DNA of 39,588 nt from a virus. Taxonomy: Duplodnaviria; Caudoviricetes. Shown here piece after piece: positions 14,239 to 35,531 of the stretch (its first letter is position 1; each line of letters begins with the position of its first letter). A program made the position numbers and the translations under genes. The stretch is from the IMG/VR virus record IMGVR_UViG_3300037755_000237, positions 1 through 39,588 of that record; one strand, 5' to 3'. Below the pieces are notes generated by a model. The model searched no databases, was not told where the DNA came from, and was given only the letters and a program-made list of their open reading frames with translations.

Positions 14239-14688
14239 CTAACGCCATACACGTACCGTGCAATCAGGATAGGCTTTGCAGGCGTCAAGGTAGTCGCCAA
14301 CGAACTTGACCAGCCCTTCGTAACTCCCCCAGCCATTCGTAGGGTTGTGGGCGCGGAATGTCACAGGATCGGCCTGTAACCTTTCAAGTCCGGTGGTTAG
14401 TGGCTCGATTAACTGTTTGGCTTGGCCGATGCCGATCTCGTCAGGCCGCCACAAGTACTTATAGACGCCAGCCGCATCAGCCATCTTGCCGAGATTGTGA
14501 GTGATGTTGGCGTGGTAGACAAGGTCATCGCCGTCACCAGTGAATGTCACGGGTTTGCGACCGGGAAACTTGGCGTCCCATTCCTCGCGCGAGATTTCTT
14601 TTTGTTGGCCGTCCTCTCTGACAAAAATGCCGTCGCCAACTCCGACAGGTGCCAGCGTCGCACCTTCGAGATAAACGTCTAGGCTCAT
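14239..14688 (-). CDS. Conserved phage hypothetical protein
   Basis: MSLDVYL...ANITHNLGKMA...NPTNGWGSYEGL. Confidence 0.75.
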   Translation of the reverse strand: MSLDVYLEGATLAPVGVGDGIFVREDGQQKEISREEWDAKFPGRKPVTFTGDGDDLVYHANITHNLGKMADAAGVYKYLWRPDEIGIGQAKQLIEPLTTGLERLQADPVTFRAHNPTNGWGSYEGLVKFVGDYLDACKAYPDCTVRVWR

Positions 14689-15110
14689 TTCAAATACTCC
14701 TCTAGCAGTTCACGGATGGCCTGTGGGCGGGTCTTTCCGCCACGGTAGGCGTCAAGTCTAGCCAGCAAATCCGGTTGAAGCCTGACGCCGACAAGCGTGC
14801 CTATACCGTCAGGTGCATGGGCGCCATTGCGAACAGCTTCGATGGCTTGCTCAATAGCAGCTAGGGCCTCGGTTTCAGTAACGTCAAACCATTCGCCCCC
14901 CGCTCTCGCGTAGGCAAGGAGACTGTGTGCCATCTTTTCTACGGCGCGGGCTGACAGTCGGTCTGGCAAAGCCGTAGAAACAAGGACGCGAAGCGGTATG
15001 CCGCGCTCGTTTTGTAGCGTCTCAGCGCGAGCGTGGGGCGCGCGCGAAATGCCAACTTTAATCGCTCGCTGCTCTTCGGTGCCAATCGCGTAGATGTGGA
15101 TTGGGGTCAT
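14685..15110 (-). CDS. GIY-YIG-like (T5orf172/Mug113-type) nuclease domain fused to C-terminal ribbon-helix-helix
   Basis: HIYAIG...IKVGIS..P..R...LQ...E...H...GEWF; VGVRLQPDLLARLDAYR...RPQAIRELL. Confidence 0.75.
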   Translation of the reverse strand: MTPIHIYAIGTEEQRAIKVGISRAPHARAETLQNERGIPLRVLVSTALPDRLSARAVEKMAHSLLAYARAGGEWFDVTETEALAAIEQAIEAVRNGAHAPDGIGTLVGVRLQPDLLARLDAYRGGKTRPQAIRELLEEYLK

Positions 15111-15292
15111 AGTCCAGTTTCCTTCCCGGCTGTAGTTAGTTCGGCGGTCGCCTTCTGGCGTAGCGCCATGCGAATCCATGCCGAAATGGACAGGCCAGAT
15201 AGTTCGGCCGCCTTGGCGAAAGCGTCCTTTTCTTTCTGATTGACCCTGATCCGCAGGAATTCGGGTCGCCCTAAGCCTCTAATACCTTTCAT
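15107..15292 (-). CDS. Ribbon-helix-helix DNA-binding protein
   Basis: LRIRVNQKEKDAFAKAAELSGLSISAWIRMAL. Confidence 0.75.
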   Translation of the reverse strand: MKGIRGLGRPEFLRIRVNQKEKDAFAKAAELSGLSISAWIRMALRQKATAELTTAGKETGL

Positions 15293-15378: not shown

Positions 15379-17838
15379 ATGGCTGACAACGAAGACCTGC
15401 CCGCTCCAGAGACCGCCGATGGCTGGCTCGAAGAAATCGACCGCGCCCTTGAGCGGGAGAAGAAATGGCGTGAGCGTGGCGACAAGATCGTCAAACGCTA
15501 TCGTGACGAGCGGACGGCCAAATCATCGACCAAGCAGGACTCCAAGGTCAATATCCTGTGGTCGAATACCGAAGTCCTGAAGGCCGCGCTCTATCCCTCG
15601 ACCGCCAAGCCGGATGTACGCAGGCGCTTTCCCGACACGCCTGAGACGACGGTTCTATCCCGCACCGCCGCCGAAGTGGTTGAGCGCAGTCTGTCCTATG
15701 CCATTGATGTGGAGGATGTCGACGATCCGATTGAATCGGCAATCGAGGACGATCTGCTGCCCGGTCGTGGCGTGTGCTGGGTCAGCTACGAACCCTCGCT
15801 CGGAAAAGACGATTACGGCGTCGAGACCGTCAACGGGCAAAACCTATGCCTGGATTTTGTTTATTGGAAGGATTTCTGTCACGGCAAGTCTCGTGGCTGG
15901 AAGGGCGTTCCGTGGGTTGGTCGTCGTCACGGTATGCGGCCGGACAAGTTCAAGGAGAAGTTTCCGAACGCCAAGCCTGCCGTTCCCAATCGCGATTACA
16001 GCCTGACTGAAGGCAAGGGGCAAAGCGAACCCGACGATATCGAGGTCTGGGAAATTTGGTCGAAGGCCAGAAAGCAGCGGCTCTACGTCGCCCGAGGCTA
16101 TCTCGATATTCTTGCCCCGACCGACGATCCCTATGGGCTGACCGGGTTTTTCCCGTGCCCCAAGCCGCTCTACTCAGTCACGACCACGGACGGGCTGATC
16201 CCCGAGCCTGAGTTCTGCCAGTACCAGGACCAAGCCGGCGAGCTTGACCGGATTTCAACTCGCATCACCCGCCTGACCGAGCAACTGAAATGGAAGGGCA
16301 TATACGACTCGTCGATGGACGACAGCGAGAGCACGCTGCAAAACCTCGCCTCCGCCGATGATAACGAATTCCTGCCATACGCCAATTGGATGGCGCTCAA
16401 GGACAAGGGCGGTATTGAATCCGGCGTCGGCTTCTGGCCGATGGAGCGGATTATCGGCGTGCTCAAGGAATTGCATATCCAGCGCGCCCAGTTGATCCAG
16501 ACCATATACGAAATCACCGGCATTTCCGACATTATTCGCGGTTCAAGCGATCCTAGGGAGACCAAGGGCGCGCAGCAACTAAAGGCCCAGTTCGGCTCGA
16601 TGCGGATGCAGGCCCGCCAGAAGGAGGTCCAGAGGTTCATCCGCGACTGCTACCGGCTGATGGCGGAAATTATCGCCGAGCATTTCACGGTTGAAACGTT
16701 AGAGGGCATTACGGGCATGAGCCTGCCGGCTGAAAAGCCGATGCAGTTGCCGGCCACGGTGCCTCCGCCAATGCCGTCCATGCCTATGCCCGCACAAATG
16801 GGGCAGGCACCGCCGAACAGTCCCCCGATGGGGACCGGCGGTGGCGAGGGCGGGGCGATGAACCCCGCCCTTTCCGATTCAGCGCCGAACATGCCTGAAG
16901 TTGCGCCGACTCCTGCCATGCAGGCGGCTCCAAAGCCGTCATGGCCCGAGGTCATGGAAATCCTGAGATCTGACAGGCTTCGTTCGTACCGCATTGATAT
17001 CGAGACCGACCAGACGGCGTTCCAGGATTCCGAAGAGGAGAAATCCAAGCGCATCGAGTTCATGACGGCGGTCAATGAAATGCTGGAGAAAGCCTACCTC
17101 GCCGCTACCAACGCGCCGACCATGCTGCCGCTGATCCGCGAGACCTTCATGTTTGCGATCAGATCGTTCAAGGCCGGTCGGACACTGGAGCAGGCAGCGG
17201 AGGATGCATTCGACCAGCTAATTCGCAATCCGCCACCAGCCAAACCCGATCCGAGAGCGGCTGAAGTCAAAGCCAAGATGGAGCAGGAGAGCGCGACATT
17301 TGAACTTAACCGTAAGGATAAGGCCGAGCGGCTGATGATGGATCAGGACGACATGGCCCAGCGGCGTGAAGCCGACCTGTCTCACGAGGCCCGCAAGCTG
17401 GACATGCAGGCGGCGGCGAAGCCTCTGGCTTTGCCGGCACCGGAGCCCGACCCGACGATGCCAAGCGAGCGTGAGAAATTCGATTTTGAGCGGTCATTGA
17501 AGGAACGCGAATTCAACCTGAAGCGCGCCGCACAGAACAAGCAGATCGCGACCGAAGCCGAGGGCGAAATGGGCCAGCCTAAGGAAATAGACGCCCAATC
17601 GCCTCTGGAAATGTTGATTGCCGGCGTTGCCCAGTTGGCCGGATCGATTGCCGACTCGAACCGGCAACTTGCCGAACAGATTGCGGCAGGACAGGCCCAG
17701 ATCGCACAAGGGCAGGCGCAACAGTCGGAGCAATTTGCTCAACTGGCCCAGCTTATTGCCGCACCCCGTAACGTCGATCTGAAACGTGGCCGCGACGGCA
17801 AGGCAACCGGCGCAACTTCATCCATTTCGCTCAACTAG
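15379..17838 (+). CDS. Portal protein
   Basis: 819 aa downstream of terL; NILWSN, PGRGVCWV, DPYGLTGFFPCP, IYEITGISDIIRG; long coiled-coil C-terminus. Confidence 0.85.
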   Translation: MADNEDLPAPETADGWLEEIDRALEREKKWRERGDKIVKRYRDERTAKSSTKQDSKVNILWSNTEVLKAALYPSTAKPDVRRRFPDTPETTVLSRTAAEVVERSLSYAIDVEDVDDPIESAIEDDLLPGRGVCWVSYEPSLGKDDYGVETVNGQNLCLDFVYWKDFCHGKSRGWKGVPWVGRRHGMRPDKFKEKFPNAKPAVPNRDYSLTEGKGQSEPDDIEVWEIWSKARKQRLYVARGYLDILAPTDDPYGLTGFFPCPKPLYSVTTTDGLIPEPEFCQYQDQAGELDRISTRITRLTEQLKWKGIYDSSMDDSESTLQNLASADDNEFLPYANWMALKDKGGIESGVGFWPMERIIGVLKELHIQRAQLIQTIYEITGISDIIRGSSDPRETKGAQQLKAQFGSMRMQARQKEVQRFIRDCYRLMAEIIAEHFTVETLEGITGMSLPAEKPMQLPATVPPPMPSMPMPAQMGQAPPNSPPMGTGGGEGGAMNPALSDSAPNMPEVAPTPAMQAAPKPSWPEVMEILRSDRLRSYRIDIETDQTAFQDSEEEKSKRIEFMTAVNEMLEKAYLAATNAPTMLPLIRETFMFAIRSFKAGRTLEQAAEDAFDQLIRNPPPAKPDPRAAEVKAKMEQESATFELNRKDKAERLMMDQDDMAQRREADLSHEARKLDMQAAAKPLALPAPEPDPTMPSEREKFDFERSLKEREFNLKRAAQNKQIATEAEGEMGQPKEIDAQSPLEMLIAGVAQLAGSIADSNRQLAEQIAAGQAQIAQGQAQQSEQFAQLAQLIAAPRNVDLKRGRDGKATGATSSISLN

Positions 17839-22388: not shown

Positions 22389-22579
22389 ATGCCTATCCCT
22401 TCCTCAACCTACACGGAGTTGGTGACAACCACTCTGGATAATTATCGCGCCACGCTGGCCGATAACATTACCAACCACAATCCATTGCTGGAGCGTGTCA
22501 AGCGCAAGGGCAATGCCGAGCCGGTCGGCGGCGGCGTCAAGATTCTTGAGAATCTGATGTATGCGCAGAACTCTACCCT
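22389..22579 (+). CDS. Major capsid protein, exon 1
   Basis: ELVTTTLDNY...LADNITNHNPLL...GG...YAQNST. Confidence 0.85.
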
Positions 22580-23202
22580 TAACAAACTTCTGCTCGCTGC
22601 TTGAGGTAGGCGAGGTAAAGCGAATAGTCTTCGTTCCAGAATTTTTTGCGGTTACAGGTTCGACATAGCGTTTGAGCATTCGATCTCTCGGTAGTTCCGC
22701 CGGCAAAGCGGGGCTTCTTATGATCGAGTTCAAGATTATGCGTCGATCCACATTTCTCGCACTTATCACCCTTCCATTCCTGCTTTTGCCAATTGGTGAA
22801 CATGTTTCGTTCGCCACGCTTGCGTAGTTTTCGGCGGAACAGGTTGGCGCAGGCGCGAGAGCAGAACTTGGCAAGGCCGAGATTGACGCTCCAACTCAAG
22901 GCTTCGAATTTAGCCCTGCACTGGAGACATTCTCGTTCAATGCGCGGATGACGCCTTAGTGCGAAATGGCAATCCCGCGAACAGCAGTTGCCGAAGCCAA
23001 GTTTTTCGGAACTGGCGGTTCTGTAAAAATCCTTGCCGCAGTTTTCGCAGTTTACCGTTTTGCCTTTGTCGCGAAAGTGACGAGCCGCACATGTTCTTGA
23101 ACATGTGATGGCTGGCCATTTGGCGACGTGGCTTGGCGGTTTGTAGAAATCAGTGCCGCATACAACGCACGTTCTGGACGGGCCTAATCGCTTTCTTCCC
23201 AT
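22579..23202 (-). CDS. HNH homing endonuclease with three CxxC...CSxxC zinc-finger repeats
   Basis: CEKCGS...LELDHKKPRFAGG...SNAQTLCRTCNRKK. Confidence 0.9.
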   Translation of the reverse strand: MGRKRLGPSRTCVVCGTDFYKPPSHVAKWPAITCSRTCAARHFRDKGKTVNCENCGKDFYRTASSEKLGFGNCCSRDCHFALRRHPRIERECLQCRAKFEALSWSVNLGLAKFCSRACANLFRRKLRKRGERNMFTNWQKQEWKGDKCEKCGSTHNLELDHKKPRFAGGTTERSNAQTLCRTCNRKKFWNEDYSLYLAYLKQRAEVC

Positions 23203-23467
23203 GCCGAAAAGTATAGCAGAATCTAGGGGGTATTAAAATCTTTCCTGATTGACTTGGAAGCCCCAAGCGGGGGCGACAGGGCGGAAGCAGGGCTTAACAG
23301 CCTGGGCACCGTGAACGACTGAGCGGAAAGACCCCGAAAGGGGATGCGACAGTCTGCTCTCCCGTATAGCGCTTGAAAAACAAGCGGGAGAGGGCGATCC
23401 GAAGAGGTTGCCCCGCCATCGCAAGGTGGTCAGTAGCGGTTTCCCGAACCGTGAAAGTAACAGAATG
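22580..23467 (+). mobile_element. Group I intron (888 nt) with endonuclease gene in L1
   Basis: Splice after U22579 and after G23467 restores NSTLLWYSG in frame; 323-aa product. Confidence 0.85.
23223..23467 (+). ncRNA. Group I ribozyme core (IGS, P3-P9)
   Basis: IGS GGGGTA 23227-32 pairs with exon TACCCT; P3 TCTTTCC/GGAAAGA; P5 CCCC/GGGG; P7 GACTG/CAGTC; P8 CCCC-GAAA-GGGG; P9 hairpins; terminal G. Confidence 0.85.
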
Positions 23468-24248
23468 CTTGTGGTACTCGGGGCTTGAGCTTCTGACCGT
23501 CGAGCAGTCGGACGTTCTGACTTCCGCTAATTTCGACTGGAAGGAACTGAACGTCAACGTCGTGATCTCGGGACTCGAAAAGGCCCAGAATTCTGGGACC
23601 AAAGAGTCCGTCCATAACCTCCTCAAGTCGAGGATCAAGGTGGCGGAAATCACGATGCAGAACGAGATCGCGGCGGCGCTGTTCTATAGCAACACCGAGA
23701 ACTCAGGCAAAAGCATTGGCGGCCTCCAGCATCTCGTGGCTGACCTTCCGACCGCTTCGGCGACCATCGGCGGGATCAATCAGTCGACGCAGACTTGGTG
23801 GGCAAACCAATACTACGACTTCTCTGTCGTAGGCCCGACGCCTTCTGCCACGACCATCCAGGCGGCGATGAACCAGAACTACATCAATACCTCTCGGGGT
23901 AAAGACAAGATCGATATGTTCATCGGCGACTCGATCTACTTCAACTACTACCTCACGAGCTTGCAGACCAACCAACGCTTCATGTCCGAAAAGGAAGCCG
24001 GCGCTGGTTTCTCGGCTCTCAAGTTCTGGGGTGGCGCGGCGGATGTCTTTTACGACTCCAACGTACCCGCTTCGCACATGTACGGGCTGAACACCGACTA
24101 CATCCACTATCGCCCGCACTCCGATTACAACTTCGTCACGCTTGACGACAAGGTTTCGGTCAATCAGGACGCGACCGTGGTGCCCATGTACTGGAAGGGC
24201 AACACGACCGTTTCCAACCGCAATCTTCAGTCGGTCATCTGTGCATAA
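23468..24248 (+). CDS. Major capsid protein, exon 2
   Basis: WYSGLE...FDWK...ISGLE..QNSG...LLKSRI...GGLQ...GGIN...YGLNTDYI...NQDA. Confidence 0.85.
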
Positions 24249-24269: not shown

Positions 24270-24764
24270 ATGGCTTTTCGCAACAAGACCTCATCTGTCC
24301 TCGCGCAAGCAATTGCCGATAACAGCACGACCCAGAAATATCCTCTGGGTTATATCATCCAGGCTACCGATCCCACTTGGGGAACCGGCGAGTTCATTTA
24401 CCTGAAGGGCATCAACAGCACGATTGTTGGTTCCGTCGTGACGTACCATCTTTCGACGTTCACGACAGCACTAGCGACCAGTGTGGTTGGCGTCTCCAAC
24501 CCGGTTGCGGTGGCAATGTCGGCCTCCGTTACCAATGAGTTCGGCTGGTATCAGATCAGCGGCATTGCCCAAATGGGCAAGGCGAATACGCTTTCGCTGG
24601 CGGTGACGTTGCCGCTGGCGGTTGCCTCCGGTCTGGTGATTGCCGCAGCGACGACCAATCGGCTTTCCGGTTGCGTTACCGCTGCCGTCGCGTCGGCAAG
24701 CACGCTTGTTATCACCGTGCCTTGCATGATCTCGCGCCCGACAACGGGTGGCGGCGAAGCATAA
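24270..24764 (+). CDS. Capsid decoration/cement-like protein
   Basis: Follows the capsid gene; PLG...DPTWGTGEFIYLKG...VAVAM...GWYQISG. Confidence 0.65.
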   Translation: MAFRNKTSSVLAQAIADNSTTQKYPLGYIIQATDPTWGTGEFIYLKGINSTIVGSVVTYHLSTFTTALATSVVGVSNPVAVAMSASVTNEFGWYQISGIAQMGKANTLSLAVTLPLAVASGLVIAAATTNRLSGCVTAAVASASTLVITVPCMISRPTTGGGEA

Positions 24765-24783
24765 TTGTAAACTGAATCACTCC

Positions 24784-24813
24784 AAGGGGCGGGCTAAACA
24801 CCCGCCCCTTTTT
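24784..24813 (+). terminator. Rho-independent terminator after capsid and decoration genes
   Basis: AAGGGGCGGG-CTAAACA-CCCGCCCCTT-TTT. Confidence 0.85.
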
Positions 24814-24825
24814 CATGGAGCCTAC

Positions 24826-26208
24826 ATGCCTGTACCGCGCGATAGAGTGAGGCAACTGACCTATCAAAATCCTCATGCGACGGGGCCGCTGTTCATGCCT
24901 CTGCTCGTACGTTGCAATACTCCGGACGAAGAACTGATGGGTAATGTCCGGGTGAACTCGTCAAGAGAGGAATTGGAATGGCTTGCGGCTAAAGAACCGC
25001 ATGAAGGGATTGCCGTCATGGTTGGCGGCGGGCCGTCCGTGGAAGACTTCCACATCGAAATTATGGAGATGGCAAACGATCTTGACGCTACCGTTTTTGC
25101 TATGAACGCCGCGTCGCAATATCTGAACGAACACGACATCAGGGTTGATTATCAGGTCATCGCGGACGCCAAGGAGGAAACGGCGACGCTGGTCGATCCC
25201 AAGGCTGGTGCCCACCTGTTTGCTTCTCAGGTGAATCCGGCAACCATGCGGTCTGTCGATCATCCAATTGTCTGGCATTTGGAAAACATTGATTCCGGCA
25301 ACGTCGAAACCGCACTTGAACCAATCCGCATGAAGCGTGGCGGCTACGCGGTTATCGGAGGCGGGGCTTCAACCGGCAACGCAGCACTCTGCGTGGCGTA
25401 TTGCATGGGCTTCCGCGATCTTCGCCTGTTCGGATACGACTCTTCCAATCGCGGGCAGAGATCACACGCTTACGAGCAGACGATGAACCGGATCATTCCG
25501 GTAACGGAAGTCGAGTGGGGTGGGAAGATTTACAGTTCGTCGGTGTCGATGAGATCGCAGGCCGAAAAGTTTCAGTTCACGGCGCGGGAATTGAAGGGGC
25601 ATGGATGCAAGATCACCGTCTATGGCGAGGGTCTGTTGCAGGCGATGTACCTGACGCCGCCAGATCTCTTGTCCGAGCGCAACAAGTATCAGTTGATGTG
25701 GCAGTTCGACGGATACCGTAATTTCTCGCCGGGAGAGGATGTTGTTGACCTGTTTCTGGATGTCGCCGAGCCGGACGGACTAATCATCGATTTCGGCTGT
25801 GGCACAGGTCGGGCCGCCCTGACGTTGTACAACAAGGGCTACGACGTCATTCTTGTCGATTTTGCCGATAATTGCCGGGACGAAGAGGCCGAGGGGCTGA
25901 CATTTGTCGAATGGGATTTGGTAAAGCCGATTTCGCTGCGTGCTCCATTTGGTTTCTGCACCGATGTCATGGAGCACATACCGCCAGCCGATGTCGACAA
26001 GGTTCTGACCAACATCATGGAAGCGGCGGAGACGGTGTTTTTCCAGATCGCGACAGTCGATGATGAATTTGGCGCGGTGATCGGCCATCGGCTGCACAAC
26101 ACAGTTCAGCCGCATGAATGGTGGGCTGAAAAAATCGTATCGCTCGGGTTTGATATCGAGTGGGAGAAAGTCGTGAAGCCGGGCGCGTCGGCTTTCCTGG
26201 TAGAGTGA
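24826..26208 (+). CDS. Maf/DUF115 (MptE-like) domain fused to class I SAM methyltransferase
   Basis: VMVGGGPS, FAMNAA, ASQVNP, GGGASTG...AYCMGFRDLRLFGYDSS...HAY; then IIDFGCGTGR, CTDVMEHIP. Confidence 0.8.
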   Translation: MPVPRDRVRQLTYQNPHATGPLFMPLLVRCNTPDEELMGNVRVNSSREELEWLAAKEPHEGIAVMVGGGPSVEDFHIEIMEMANDLDATVFAMNAASQYLNEHDIRVDYQVIADAKEETATLVDPKAGAHLFASQVNPATMRSVDHPIVWHLENIDSGNVETALEPIRMKRGGYAVIGGGASTGNAALCVAYCMGFRDLRLFGYDSSNRGQRSHAYEQTMNRIIPVTEVEWGGKIYSSSVSMRSQAEKFQFTARELKGHGCKITVYGEGLLQAMYLTPPDLLSERNKYQLMWQFDGYRNFSPGEDVVDLFLDVAEPDGLIIDFGCGTGRAALTLYNKGYDVILVDFADNCRDEEAEGLTFVEWDLVKPISLRAPFGFCTDVMEHIPPADVDKVLTNIMEAAETVFFQIATVDDEFGAVIGHRLHNTVQPHEWWAEKIVSLGFDIEWEKVVKPGASAFLVE

Positions 26209-26795
26209 GCAATTTTCGACTGCTGAATCCGGATTGCGTATTTATTCATATCCCCAAGACCGGCGGCACCTCTATTCGGCGCGGTGTCTGGGGCAGTCAG
26301 TACGTCGGCCCGATGTACGGTGAGATACCGGCAGAGTGGGATGGGCTATGGCGATTTGCATTTGTGCGCCATCCTCTCGAACGTCTCATGTCGGCGTGGG
26401 ACATGGCTTGTCGAAAACAAGTTTATGGCCCGCCTGTAGCGCAGACCATTGAGGCGTTTCTGGCCGTCGTGATGGATGACGATATTCCGCACGATTATAA
26501 AAGTCCCATGCGTACAGAGGGCGAGCGAATTCGACATCATACGATCCCGCAGACGCATCCGTTCAACTGTCTTGAGGCGGCCGATTTCGTCGGTCGGTTT
26601 GAACACTTTCAACGGGATTATACGGTCGTAGCCAAGCGGATGGGAATAACCTCCCGCGATTTGCCGCACATGTATCCGGCCACGCAGCCCCGCCAATGGT
26701 CGGATGTTTTGTCAGGCGAATGCCTGCAACATTGTGTCGATTACTATCGTCGAGATTTTGAACAATTGGGTTACGAGTTGCCCGCAAATCACTAA
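26205..26795 (+). CDS. Sulfotransferase family 2 protein
   Basis: 5'-PSB FIHIPKTGGTSI; 3'-PB FVRHPLERLMSAW; FVGRFE; YRRDFEQLGY. Confidence 0.9.
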   Translation: MSNFRLLNPDCVFIHIPKTGGTSIRRGVWGSQYVGPMYGEIPAEWDGLWRFAFVRHPLERLMSAWDMACRKQVYGPPVAQTIEAFLAVVMDDDIPHDYKSPMRTEGERIRHHTIPQTHPFNCLEAADFVGRFEHFQRDYTVVAKRMGITSRDLPHMYPATQPRQWSDVLSGECLQHCVDYYRRDFEQLGYELPANH

Positions 26796-29186: not shown

Positions 29187-30685
29187 TGCCGCGCATTTCT
29201 CAGCCGATACCAATTCCCAGTCCATATGGAGGCATTAACACCCGCGAGGGCATCGGCTCGCTTCAACCGCATGAAGCGCGTTCGCTCATCAACTGGGAGC
29301 CGTCCGGCAACTCATGCAAGCCGCGCCCCGGCCATGATTTTTATTCCGAGGATGGAGCCTCGGAGGAACCAGTTGAAACGCTGGCTTCGTTCAACGGGTT
29401 GGCCGGAGAAGCGCTGATCGGTGTTAATGGCGGCTCGATCTGGGATTTCTCCAATTCGGTAGCTGTAGAGCTTCTAGCGGCTGGGTTTACCGACAGCCGG
29501 TTTCAGACCGAGTGCTACAACAATCGCTTGTTTGGAGTGAACGGCACCGACACGCCGTGGGTTTACAATGGCACGACGGCCAGCACATCGACAGGATTTT
29601 CCGGGTCAGGTCTGACACTCAGCAATCTCACCAACATCGCCAAGGTTCGCAATCGTCTCTGGTTTACCGAAAAGAATTCCGCCGATGTCTGGTATGGCGG
29701 GCTCGGGCTGATCACCGGGGCGCTGACCAAATTCCAGTTGAGCCAGGTTGTCGGTGGCGGTGCCTGTATTGCCATAGGTGCGCATTCGCAAGACGCCGGA
29801 GACGGGCCTGACGATTATACGGCGTTCGTCATGTCGACGGGCGAGGTCGTGATCTATGCCGGCGATCCGTCGACGACGTTTTCCAAGGTCGGCAATTATT
29901 TCATGCCGCCGCCGGTTGGAAAGCGGTGTCTGGTCAATATCGGCGGGCCATTGGCGGTCCTGACCCATATGGGTCTTGTGCCGCTGCAAGCCGCTGTCAC
30001 GGGCATTGCCTTTGATCAAATGGCGGTCGGGAATTTCGGCAAGGTGTCGCCGTCGATCAGGCGGGATGTCGACAGGTTCGCTAGTTTGCCGGGCTGGTTT
30101 GCAATTCAGCACGAGGGCCGGATCATCATCAATGTGCCGACTTCGACGGAATCGTCGAGGCAGTGGGTTTATAACGCGCTCACCGGCTCATGGCATGAAT
30201 GGCACGGCATTTCGGCGGCCAGCATGGCAGTCGGGATTGACGATCTGCACGGACTTTACTTTGGTTCGTGGTCGGATGGGGTCGTCGACAAGATTGACGG
30301 GATTCTCGATCGGGGCGAACCGATCATGGTTGCCTCGCGCGGGGCATTCGCGGTTCTACCCGGCGGGGTTCTCCAGACCACGACCGGCATTCGTTTCGAC
30401 ATGGCGATTGAAGGAGCCATTTCAGGAAAGTTCGGCATCGATACCGACTATACCGAAACCGATCTCAGTTCCTATCCGACCCTCGACATTGCATCCTCGA
30501 CCGCGTCCACCCCGTGGGGATCGCCGTGGGGTTCCGACTGGTCGGATTCGAGCAAGCATCCCGGCTTGTGGATGTCGGCCTATGCCGAAGGTCATTCGGT
30601 GGCTCTGGCAATGGAAGCCACCGTCAACGCAGTGAGCGAAGATTGGCTGGGCGCGCATCTCCTGACCCGCCAGACCGGCATCTGA
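29186..30685 (+). CDS. Tail nozzle / DNA-stabilisation protein (P22 gp10-like position)
   Basis: PSPYGGINTRE, beta-propeller-like NNRLFGVNG and NRLWF; size and position. Confidence 0.7.
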   Translation: MPRISQPIPIPSPYGGINTREGIGSLQPHEARSLINWEPSGNSCKPRPGHDFYSEDGASEEPVETLASFNGLAGEALIGVNGGSIWDFSNSVAVELLAAGFTDSRFQTECYNNRLFGVNGTDTPWVYNGTTASTSTGFSGSGLTLSNLTNIAKVRNRLWFTEKNSADVWYGGLGLITGALTKFQLSQVVGGGACIAIGAHSQDAGDGPDDYTAFVMSTGEVVIYAGDPSTTFSKVGNYFMPPPVGKRCLVNIGGPLAVLTHMGLVPLQAAVTGIAFDQMAVGNFGKVSPSIRRDVDRFASLPGWFAIQHEGRIIINVPTSTESSRQWVYNALTGSWHEWHGISAASMAVGIDDLHGLYFGSWSDGVVDKIDGILDRGEPIMVASRGAFAVLPGGVLQTTTGIRFDMAIEGAISGKFGIDTDYTETDLSSYPTLDIASSTASTPWGSPWGSDWSDSSKHPGLWMSAYAEGHSVALAMEATVNAVSEDWLGAHLLTRQTGI

Positions 30686-31101
30686 AGATCGTCGGCGGGG
30701 AGAAGGAACGAGTCGGACTCTGGATGCTGGAACGGTTGCCGGAGATCACGGCGCTTCCAGGAGGCTATGAGGCAATCGGAGTAGAGCGCGCCGGTCGGTT
30801 GATCGGTGGCTGTCTGTTCACCGAATATGTTCCGTATAAGGGCGGCGGCACGATCACGATATGGGCGGCCGGTGAACGTGGCTGGGTATCGCGTCGCGTC
30901 ATCCAGACCATGCTGGGATACCCGTTCAATCAATTGGGGTGTCATCGCATTACCGCGCTGGCGGCCAAGGACAACAAGCCGTCACGAAAACTTCTGGAAG
31001 ATTTGGGCTTTCGCTTTGAGGGTGTCGCGCGACTTGGCTTCGGGCCGCGTCGTCATGCCTGCATTTACGGACTTTTGAAAATCGAACAAGGCTGGGTTTA
31101 A
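30682..31101 (+). CDS. GNAT-family acetyltransferase-like protein
   Basis: YPFNQLGCHRITA...NKPSRKLLEDLGFRFEG; start CTG 30682 or ATG 30724. Confidence 0.8.
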   Translation: MKIVGGEKERVGLWMLERLPEITALPGGYEAIGVERAGRLIGGCLFTEYVPYKGGGTITIWAAGERGWVSRRVIQTMLGYPFNQLGCHRITALAAKDNKPSRKLLEDLGFRFEGVARLGFGPRRHACIYGLLKIEQGWV

Positions 31102-33626: not shown

Positions 33627-35531
33627 ATGGCGGTTGAGATTGGCTATACCTATGGCAATGTCGGCGACAGGAAGTCCGGCAAGTCTCGCTATGGGGCAGT
33701 TGCTCCTAAAACCCGCTCTCTTCTGGATAGGGCAACGGAATTAGCCAATCAGTCTCTACTTTCCGGCAAGCGAATTGGCCGTATTGAGGTCTTTTCAGGT
33801 GGCCAGCCAGCTGGTCAGAAAGTCCTGGGAACCAAGGTCAGGAAGGCGATTGTTCCGGGGGTTGGCGGTGGATTTGGCAGTCCGCGCCATGATTTCGGAG
33901 GGGCCGCCGATGTCCACGTTTACGATCAGAACGGCAATCGGGTCGATTATTCGACCACTGCCGGCAAGAACATTTTCAATGCCTTAGCCCGTTCGGCCGC
34001 TCAGGTCGGGGCAACCGGGATCGGCTTCGGCACCGGCTATATGGGCAATGCGACGATCCATATCGGGTTCGGTGGACAGGCGACCTGGGGCGGAATGCCC
34101 TCCGATATGAAAAGGGCGGTTCAATTTGGTTGGGATAATCGGCTTCCCGACGCGATCTCATGGAATCCACGGGACGAAGCGGCAGCGCAGATTAGCCGTC
34201 TTGGCTATGTCGACGCCCAAGGCAAGCCGGATGTAGCGGCGTTCCAAAGGGCGGTCGGCGCTCCGGTCGATGGCGTTCTTGGTCCCGTGACCATGACGCA
34301 CGCATGGACCGCCAGTGTAGATGCTACCGGCAAGCAGGTTGTTTCGCTTGCCAAGGCGATTTCACCGGGAACCAACGATCCACTGCCGTCCTATGCCGAT
34401 GCCAAGACGGCGCGAGAAGCCGCATTGGCCGGGACTATAGTGGGTAATAACCCATCCGTTAACATCGCTGTTTCTGAACTGACGGGCCAACCCCGCACGT
34501 CATCCCTGTTCGGCGGGAATCCGTTCGATATAGCCAAGGCACCATCGCCGGGACTTATCGGGAGGCGGCCCGATTTCGATTCCGTAGTTGGTCCGGCCAA
34601 TGCGCCCGTGCAGATGGCGGAAGCCCTGCGTCGTCCGGCAGTCGATACAACCGGCATTAATCTCTATCGCCCGAATACTTCTCCGCGTCCGGTAGCAGCG
34701 CAGCCAATGGCGGCTTCCTCCCCGTCACGCGCTCCCGGCGCGGTACTACAAAGGGCGGTTGCCGATGCTGCCGCCAGACGGGCTTCAAGTCCGGCGCGCG
34801 GCGCACAAGCAGCGTCCGGCTTGCAGAGTTACGCACCAAAGGCGGCGCTGAAAACAGCAACACTGGCAGCGGCGGCCAGACATGCCGCAAGCCCATCTAG
34901 AGGCGCACAGGCGGCCTCTGGCCTACAAGGATTCAAAACAGCACCCACGGCGACAGTCACGCCGCGCCCACAGGCACCGTCGGCACAATATAAGCCCAGC
35001 CCCGCACAGGCCGCGCGAGCCGCTTCAAGCCTCGGTGTCACGCCAAGCCCGGCGATGGGCGCACGGGGCGCGTCCGAACTGCAAGGTTACACGCCGTCAA
35101 TCGGTTCAGTATCGCTCGATGATTCGGTTCTTGCGGCCTCAATGACGCCGACCAATGTGCCCTTGACCGGGACCGTTCCCGCCGTCGCGCCAATGCCGGT
35201 GCCGGCACAAATGCCGCAAGTCCTGCCGCCGCTGCCTCCGGCGCTCACGGTGACAAAGCCGACCGTGTTCAATCCATATGCGGCTCCGGTTCCGATGGGC
35301 GGCGTTCACGCCCTCGCCCAGAGACAGAATTTGTCTAACATCAAGACCGGCACGGCTCCGGTGTCCGGCATCAACTACGCCACCGGCACGACCAAGGGCG
35401 GCGACAATGTGCTGACCTACACGAACTCCAAGGGCAAGACGATCACGACGCCTGCTTCCGGCGGTTCAAGGCGCGGCCATCTGAAAAAGATAACACGAAT
35501 TTCACGCTCCACGGGCGGTACGGTTTTCTAG
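33627..35531 (+). CDS. Virion-associated peptidoglycan hydrolase-like protein (M15-like Zn peptidase, PG-binding, Ala/Pro/Ser-rich tail)
   Basis: GSPRHDFGGAADV...IHIG; VAAFQRAVGAPVDGVLGPVT. Confidence 0.65.
   Translation: MAVEIGYTYGNVGDRKSGKSRYGAVAPKTRSLLDRATELANQSLLSGKRIGRIEVFSGGQPAGQKVLGTKVRKAIVPGVGGGFGSPRHDFGGAADVHVYDQNGNRVDYSTTAGKNIFNALARSAAQVGATGIGFGTGYMGNATIHIGFGGQATWGGMPSDMKRAVQFGWDNRLPDAISWNPRDEAAAQISRLGYVDAQGKPDVAAFQRAVGAPVDGVLGPVTMTHAWTASVDATGKQVVSLAKAISPGTNDPLPSYADAKTAREAALAGTIVGNNPSVNIAVSELTGQPRTSSLFGGNPFDIAKAPSPGLIGRRPDFDSVVGPANAPVQMAEALRRPAVDTTGINLYRPNTSPRPVAAQPMAASSPSRAPGAVLQRAVADAAARRASSPARGAQAASGLQSYAPKAALKTATLAAAARHAASPSRGAQAASGLQGFKTAPTATVTPRPQAPSAQYKPSPAQAARAASSLGVTPSPAMGARGASELQGYTPSIGSVSLDDSVLAASMTPTNVPLTGTVPAVAPMPVPAQMPQVLPPLPPALTVTKPTVFNPYAAPVPMGGVHALAQRQNLSNIKTGTAPVSGINYATGTTKGGDNVLTYTNSKGKTITTPASGGSRRGHLKKITRISRSTGGTVF

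What the first reader, a model, noticed from the sequence alone, without database searches (positions are those of the whole stretch)
22389..24248. Major capsid gene split by a group I intron
Seen: the capsid ORF breaks after YAQNST and resumes at LWYSG. A complete ribozyme core lies at 23223-23467: IGS GGGGUA pairs with exon UACCCU with a U-G wobble at 22579, plus P3, P5, P7 (GACUG/CAGUC), P8 and P9 hairpins and a terminal G at 23467. Joining 22579 to 23468 gives an in-frame 323-aa protein (NSTLLWYSG). Known: classic phage group I introns sit mainly in DNA-metabolism genes (td, nrdB, nrdD, polymerases) of lytic phages. Inference: here virion assembly of a temperate phage depends on splicing of its most abundant late mRNA, and unspliced RNA yields only a 71-aa stub.
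Basis: partly seen in the sequence, partly recalled or inferred. Interest (0 to 1): 0.85.

Follow-up and report, generated by a model that had tools for sequence, protein, structure and literature searches.

The report
Capsid intron with backward HNH nuclease
The major coat-protein gene of this uncultured phage is split by an 888-base insert that has the co-varying structure of a group I intron and a DNA-cutting enzyme gene on the opposite strand, so it is likely spliced out of the RNA; the same layout is already shown in mycobacteriophage LittleE, so this is a new example of a known kind.

Summary
The split is real. Removing 22580-23467 gives a 323-aa capsid protein that aligns without a gap at the junction to 101 of 101 full-length homologues; it is the only length-preserving register with exon U and terminal G. 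Rfam finds nothing, but it also misses 8 of 8 related cores. In 79 related cores P3, P6, P7 and P8 co-vary, and P1 tracks each exon in 10 same-site introns (59/60 pairs). Relatives of this HNH lie beside capsid exons of this family in 42 of 61 loci, 36 antisense, at six sites within 40 nt. Splicing itself is untested; temperate lifestyle is likely, not shown. The rarity claim fails: LittleE (temperate, capsid intron, bottom-strand endonuclease, RT-PCR proven), Tuc2009 and crAss-like phages are in print, and this scan noted the layout 16 times on other DNA. Open points: the core fits no subgroup I could compare, and it is common in capsid genes.

The parts
22389..22579 (+). Major capsid gene, exon 1 (63 codons + 2 nt); ends in U that pairs with G23227
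   Evidence: PHROG 9953 positions 5-65, E 6.6e-13; register test
22580..23467 (+). Group I intron, 888 nt; in-frame stop at 22602-22604 gives the 71-aa unspliced product; terminal G at 23467
22579..23202 (-). HNH endonuclease ORF, 207 aa (three Cys-rich zinc-ribbon-like repeats + HNH domain), filling the 647-nt P1 loop; its stop codon includes the last exon base
   Evidence: PF01844 E 1.2e-9; phrog_1271 E 1e-22; invariant residues in 38 sequences; stop position
23210..23218 (-). Predicted extended -10 element (TG-n-TATACT) 7 nt before the HNH ATG, i.e. a probable leaderless promoter
   Evidence: same spacing in 8 of 12 related antisense loci; not found by the generic scanner
23223..23232 (+). 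Internal guide sequence: 23227-23232 pairs with exon 22574-22579 (P1); 23223-23226 pairs 3 of 4 with exon 2 start (P10)
23239..23355 (+). Catalytic core: P3 23239-45/23325-31, P4 23253-56/23277-80, P5 23260-64/23270-74, P6 23282-84/23309-11, P7 23315+23317-21/23350-55 with G23317-C23354, P8 23332-35/23340-43; no P2, no P7.1/P7.2
23356..23467 (+). P9 region, four predicted hairpins, then the 3' end shared with relatives
   Evidence: fold; shared ends
23468..24248 (+). Major capsid gene, exon 2
   Evidence: PHROG 9953 positions 63-327, E 2.9e-64; 1306 homologues

Best explanation
An 888-nt insert with the structure of a group I intron splits the major capsid gene and carries an intact HNH endonuclease gene on the opposite strand; it likely self-splices from the late mRNA to restore a 323-aa capsid protein, and the nuclease likely spreads it by homing. 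Shown: split gene, junction fit, co-varying helices, intact HNH ORF, recurrence at one capsid motif. Inferred from established group I chemistry: after about 650 nt of loop are transcribed the guide sequence pairs with the exon end (P1, U.G), guanosine bound in P7 attacks after U22579, and the exon then attacks after G23467; the in-frame stop 23-25 nt into the intron keeps ribosomes out of the core. Inferred: the HNH gene is read from its own sigma-70-like leaderless promoter inside the P1 loop, nicks or cuts intron-less capsid alleles near the insertion site in mixed infections, and repair copies the intron across.
For: Register and homologue fit. Covariation in 79 cores: P3 7/7 pairs change on both sides, P8 3/3, P7 3/6, P6/P6a 2/5; 92.8% of cells paired against 37-50% when partners are slid. 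P1 follows the exon in 10 same-site introns, 59/60 pairs, 0 of 20000 permutations as good. A model built from the cores scores 15 loci outside its training set at 97.6-119 bits and none of 4 intron-less capsid loci. An ORF-less intron at the same site (L155, 10-nt P1 loop) shows that the HNH is cargo. HNH homologues lie beside capsid exons in 42 of 61 loci. Precedent with RT-PCR: LittleE (PMC3706429, passages).
Against: No transcript or in vitro data. No Rfam RF00028 hit. Core folding z only -1.64. P10 is weak in the window (3 of 4) and the guide sequence beats the next-best partner of the exon end by only 1.1 kcal/mol. P4 and part of P6 were fixed by my search pattern, so their invariance is no test. 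The promoter motif was drawn from the same sequences that it was counted on, is absent in 4 of 12 type-A and 13 of 13 type-B loci, and the generic scanner found no promoter. No nuclease target was tested; Foldseek gave no match at E<=0.001.
Confidence: 0.88

Rival explanations
1. The intron is real but needs a protein (the HNH as a maturase, or a host chaperone) to splice in vivo, because the guide sequence lies 647 nt from the 5' splice site and the core lacks P2 and P7.1/P7.2.
For: Long P1 loop; weak P10 and small energy margin for P1; compact core.
Against: ORF-less versions of the same core exist at the same site (L155) and in other genes (L188, L189), so the HNH is not needed; tested phage group I introns spliced without factors in vitro (PMC11878797, passages).
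Confidence: 0.06
2. The capsid gene is dead (defective prophage) and the insert is a relic or a free-standing nuclease cassette.
For: No integrase in the record; no expression data.
Against: Both exons, the HNH ORF and every helix are intact; the same arrangement with compensatory changes recurs in unrelated samples.
Confidence: 0.03
3. No splicing: the capsid is made as two polypeptides, the 71-aa stub plus a 259- or 291-aa product from an in-frame TTG (23469 or 23373).
For: Both TTG-started frames are open.
Against: No ribosome-binding sequence before either TTG, unlike the capsid ATG; it would not explain P1 covariation or the exact U/G register.
Confidence: 0.02
4. Assembly artefact.
For: Metagenomic record.
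Against: One contig covers both junctions with no difference; same site occupied in nine other loci.
Confidence: 0.01

Closest known systems
Mycobacteriophage LittleE major capsid gene intron (Cluster J; Pope et al. 2013, PMC3706429; abstract, outline and passages read; record JF937101)
   Same: Temperate phage, major capsid gene split by a ~0.8-kb intron with exon U and terminal G, endonuclease gene on the bottom strand; splicing shown by RT-PCR and N-terminal sequencing.
   Different: In LittleE the endonuclease lies 3' of the core, here in the P1 loop with its stop on the 5' splice site. Different core type (RF00028 hits LittleE at 30.7 bits; my model does not), different capsid and nuclease families.
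Lactococcus phage Tuc2009 major head gene intron (NC_002703 annotation; cited in PMC3706429)
   Same: Capsid gene in two ORFs joined after excision of a group I intron that holds an HNH gene.
   Different: HNH is on the sense strand inside the core; RF00028 detects the core; no hit with my model.
Group I introns in MCP genes of crAss-like phages, Delta and Zeta groups (Yutin et al. 2021, PMC7886860; passages)
   Same: Capsid gene as a usual intron host.
   Different: Other phage order; inferred from endonuclease domains; RNA structure and orientation not given in the passages seen.
Antisense HEG I-DirII in the Didymium rDNA intron (review PMC3073962, passages)
   Same: Intron endonuclease on the antisense strand with its own promoter.
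   Different: Eukaryotic rDNA and RNA polymerase II; not a phage gene.
T4 td/nrdB/nrdD introns with I-TevI, II, III (review PMC2988022, passages)
   Same: Phage group I intron with a promoter inside the intron for its endonuclease; homing by cleavage of the intron-less allele.
   Different: Sense-strand HEGs in DNA-metabolism genes; subgroup IA2 with P7.1/P7.2 (recalled), which this core lacks.

Membership tests
Group I intron | 5' exon ends in U paired with G of the internal guide sequence (P1) | tested here: met
   U22579.G23227; 59/60 pairs in 10 same-site introns, one of them C.A
Group I intron | Terminal G and in-frame exon ligation | tested here: met
   G23467; only U/G register; 323 aa, no gap against 101 of 101 homologues
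Group I intron | P3-P7 pseudoknot with invariant G-C pair next to a bulged base, and P8 | tested here: met
   P3 7/7 and P8 3/3 pairs with two-sided changes; P7 99.8% paired, G-C 79/79, first pair AU 56, GC 20, UA 3
Group I intron | P4-P5-P6 domain | tested here: met
   P6 third pair CG 47 / GC 32; P6a co-varies; P5 5/5 in the window. P4 letters were fixed by the search pattern, and my P5 columns were off by one (48.7%)
Group I intron | Guanosine-dependent self-splicing | not testable with these tools
   No RNA run listed
Rfam RF00028 model (a detector, not a defining trait) | Score above the model's threshold | tested here: not met
   No hit at E<=10. Control: misses 8 of 8 cores of this type; scores LittleE 30.7 and Tuc2009 43.2 bits, both under the cut-off of 50. 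Published misses in archaea: PMC6125680
Subgroup IA (IA2/IA3) | P7.1/P7.2 stems between P7 and P3 | tested here: not met
   Only 3 nt (23322-23324) between P7 5' strand and P3 3' strand, so in 79 cores; the IA3.1 example has these stems
Subgroups IB4, ID, IE2 | Subgroup core motifs | tested here: inconclusive
   By-eye comparison with parts of the GISSD alignments in the PMC6125680 supplement showed no motif match; subgroup models could not be run and other subgroups were not seen
HNH homing endonuclease | Intact HNH domain encoded in an intron loop | tested here: met
   PF01844 38.6 bits, cut-off 21.4; D160, H161, N175, N184 and 20 Cys invariant in 38 sequences
HNH homing endonuclease | Cleaves or nicks the intron-less allele near the insertion site | not testable with these tools
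   Only indirect: HNH clades largely group by insertion site (kin share labels)
Temperate phage | Repressor and integration module | tested here: inconclusive
   CI-like repressor 2055-2771, E 2.3e-20; no PF00589 in this linear record; relative G001 with the same intron has one

The most novel reading that the evidence does not exclude
The core belongs to an unclassified group I subgroup that Rfam cannot see, present in roughly 540 IMG/VR stretches and mostly in capsid genes, so capsid rather than DNA-metabolism genes are a main home of phage introns. In Mx8-like capsid genes a 40-nt motif is an invasion hotspot (six sites, two intron types) served by one zinc-ribbon HNH family; its antisense, leaderless, host-polymerase promoter lets it be made outside the late programme, possibly from the prophage, where it would cut the capsid gene of incoming intron-less relatives.
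Probability: 0.22. Interest if true: 0.65.

Novelty: new member of a known kind. Interest (0 to 1): 0.36.

Why it matters
As a single case it repeats LittleE. Its value is practical: gene callers report such capsids as 250-290-aa fragments (5 of 17 short homologues begin with read-through of this intron's 3' end), Rfam misses the RNA, and two GenBank phage records carry it unannotated. If the subgroup and hotspot hold, they shift the picture of where phage introns live, and offer a set of site-specific nucleases with neighbouring targets and a test of whether intron nucleases act in phage-phage competition, as reported for phiPA3 (PMC11620839, search listing only).

Tried and rejected
Rfam at gathering and at E<=10: nothing relevant. 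No RNA holder listed; contigs laid are DNA and say nothing on splicing; the two small-share runs gave only short pieces. Generic promoter scan: 0 sites. Exact pattern for this intron's 3' junction in viral contigs: 0. My model over 151 genomes of the family of G002: no match in those searched, with no known positive among them; over 7 further capsid loci: none. Foldseek of the HNH model (pLDDT 91.6, pTM 0.54): no match at E<=0.001; best nuclease row Geobacter HNH nicking enzyme 4h9d, E 0.021. Automated junction calling failed or mis-anchored in 15 of 36 loci; one search picked a wrong exon end for L131, corrected. An early idea that the second core type is IB4 was dropped: it has P7.1/P7.2 and resembles the IA3.1 example. 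Look-ups of earlier notes by place and by HNH sequence were empty. A paper search on C.A pairs at the 5' splice site was not completed.

Full report
Setting. The window is a whole 39,588-base virus record. It has a CI-like repressor (2055-2771, minus), replication initiator, large terminase, portal, tail and lysis genes. The closest capsid proteins among GenBank phages are those of Bradyrhizobium phage ppBjS10J-1 (42.6%) and Myxococcus phages Mx9 and Mx8 (40-42%), searched with the intron-less homologue P0002. That Mx8 is temperate is recalled. A 69%-identical capsid lies on a 1.13-Mb contig and is named from Bauldia sp. (P0024). No tyrosine integrase is in this linear record; G001, which has the same intron at the same site, has one (E 5.9e-27). 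Temperate is likely, not shown.

The split. ORF 22389-22604 (71 aa) and the frame ending at 24248 match positions 5-65 and 63-327 of PHROG 9953, major head protein. Exon 2 finds 1306 homologues, 120 listed. Ten registers keep the length at 323 aa; only 22579/23468 ends the exon in U and the intron in G. The joined protein is 81-87% identical to the four best homologues and has no gap over residues 58-71 against 101 of 101 full-length ones; the 18 short hits (one is the window's own) and P0087 were left out. A Logan contig covers 22277-23637 without a difference, probably from the same sample.

The RNA. As a control I scanned 13 loci: RF00028 hit four introns of another core type and the documented LittleE and Tuc2009 introns (only 2 of its 7 hits reach the cut-off), and none of 8 cores like the window's. 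Misses by this model are published (PMC6125680; part 2 of 4, passages and three supplement parts read; the supplement is held cut). A P4-P6 motif from the window fetched 121 viral loci, about 540 stretches estimated. Of 110 distinct matches 83 had a compact core and 79 were aligned after dropping four near-duplicates. P3 has two-sided changes at 7 of 7 pairs (98.7% paired), P8 at 3 of 3, P7 at 3 of 6 with G-C invariant in 79 of 79, P6/P6a at 2 of 5; the structure is 92.8% paired against 37-50% for slid partners; P5 scored 48.7% because I set its columns one off. P3 and P8 were not constrained by my patterns; P4 was. A model from this alignment scores the window 115 bits (in training) and 15 loci outside training 97.6-119 bits, and does not hit 4 intron-less capsid loci, LittleE or Tuc2009. 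In 10 introns at the window's site the six bases at a fixed distance before P3 pair with their own exon end in 59 of 60 cells (six different exon hexamers, mean 4.4 of 6 across loci, 0 of 20000 permutations; the loci are kin); nine have U.G and L126 has C.A at the splice site. Against: folding z is -1.64 and P10 is 3 of 4. The core lacks P2 and P7.1/P7.2, so I do not file it under IA; by eye it matches none of the IA3.1, IB4, ID or IE2 rows that I saw. The subgroup is open.

22579-23202 on the minus strand encodes a 207-aa HNH protein (PF01844) with 69 homologues and invariant Cys, Asp-His and Asn residues. It fills the 647-nt P1 loop. Scans with its alignment returned 61 loci; 42 hold exons of this capsid family, 36 with the HNH antisense and 6 sense (my tally; three pairs are near-duplicates; the other 19 are mostly weak motif hits or short contigs). 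In 21 of 36 loci a canonical U-or-C/G junction could be called; they fall at six sites, -23, -14, -5, 0, +8 and +17 nt from the window's. Two unlike core types are involved. The HNH tree groups largely by site, with weak deep support and one exception, L159. In 9 of 19 loci the HNH stop codon ends on the last exon base. A -10-like hexamer lies 6-7 nt before the HNH start in 8 of 12 loci with this core type, 0 of 13 of the other type and 9 of 1288 window ATGs; the motif came from the same sequences, so that contrast is optimistic, and the generic scan found no promoter. L155 has an ORF-less intron at the same site, so the HNH is cargo.

Host genes. Of 72 distinct viral loci with long flanks, 42 have a major-capsid ORF beside the core, 15 ribonucleotide reductase, 3 tape measure, 3 the terminase-portal boundary, 1 RtcB, 1 is a chance match and 7 are unassigned (my tally; 127 of 139 flanking frames were scanned). 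Most capsid cases are one family (phrog_1357), so they are not independent, and the pattern came from a capsid intron.

Mechanism. Shown: split gene, junction fit, co-varying core, intact HNH, recurrence. Inferred: two-step guanosine-dependent splicing restores the capsid mRNA; the in-frame stop just inside the intron is the usual arrangement (PMC3073962, passages); the HNH, read from its own promoter, cuts or nicks intron-less alleles and drives homing (PMC2988022, passages). Related zinc-ribbon HNH enzymes of phages are nickases (PMC3592412, abstract). Confidence 0.88.

Comparison and novelty. LittleE already shows a temperate phage, a capsid intron, a bottom-strand endonuclease and splicing by RT-PCR (PMC3706429); Tuc2009 and crAss-like phages add capsid introns. 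The scan's notes hold 16 findings with this layout in other genomes (unchecked AI notes). In eight answered paper searches I saw no listing on this core type, this capsid hotspot or this HNH family; most listings were not opened, subscription journals are missing, and the intron database of PMC11835236 (part 2 of 4 read) could not be queried. Verdict: real, well supported, new member of a known kind; interest 0.36.

Noticed in passing
L155 3252-3367 and 2266-2521 (minus): Two introns in tandem in one capsid gene: an ORF-less core of the window's type at the same site, a mini-exon, then a second core type with an antisense HNH.
   Followed up: partly
L126 (= record G001), 5' splice site: C.A instead of U.G at the 5' splice site, with compensatory changes in the rest of P1 and a 5-bp P10.
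   Followed up: partly
L012, L018, L069, L075, L089, L093, L109: A further insertion site near profile position 299, close to the C-terminus of the same capsid family, holds this core type with no ORF in P1.
   Followed up: no
L188 (OR420741.1 about 35055-35456) and L189 (MW202674.1 about 16871-17089): Unannotated introns of this type split the ribonucleotide reductase of cultured Roseobacter phage CRP-118 and a P22-like coat gene (110 and 119 bits).
   Followed up: partly
L184 9650-10723: Rhizobium aouanii 1AS14I contig: capsid gene of this family split by the other core type with an antisense HNH; a cultured test system.
   Followed up: partly
L135, L139, L183: Same HNH family on the sense strand of the P1 loop; in L139 and L183 it stops just before P3, so the gene has been inverted or inserted twice.
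   Followed up: partly
window 14685-15179 (-): Free-standing gene between terminase and portal with weak matches to a homing endonuclease family (E 1.5e-6) and a small repressor domain.
   Followed up: no
window 24748-26795 and 30514-31101 (+): MptE-like/methyltransferase fusion, sulfotransferase-like and acyltransferase genes inside the structural block, possibly virion-modifying enzymes.
   Followed up: no
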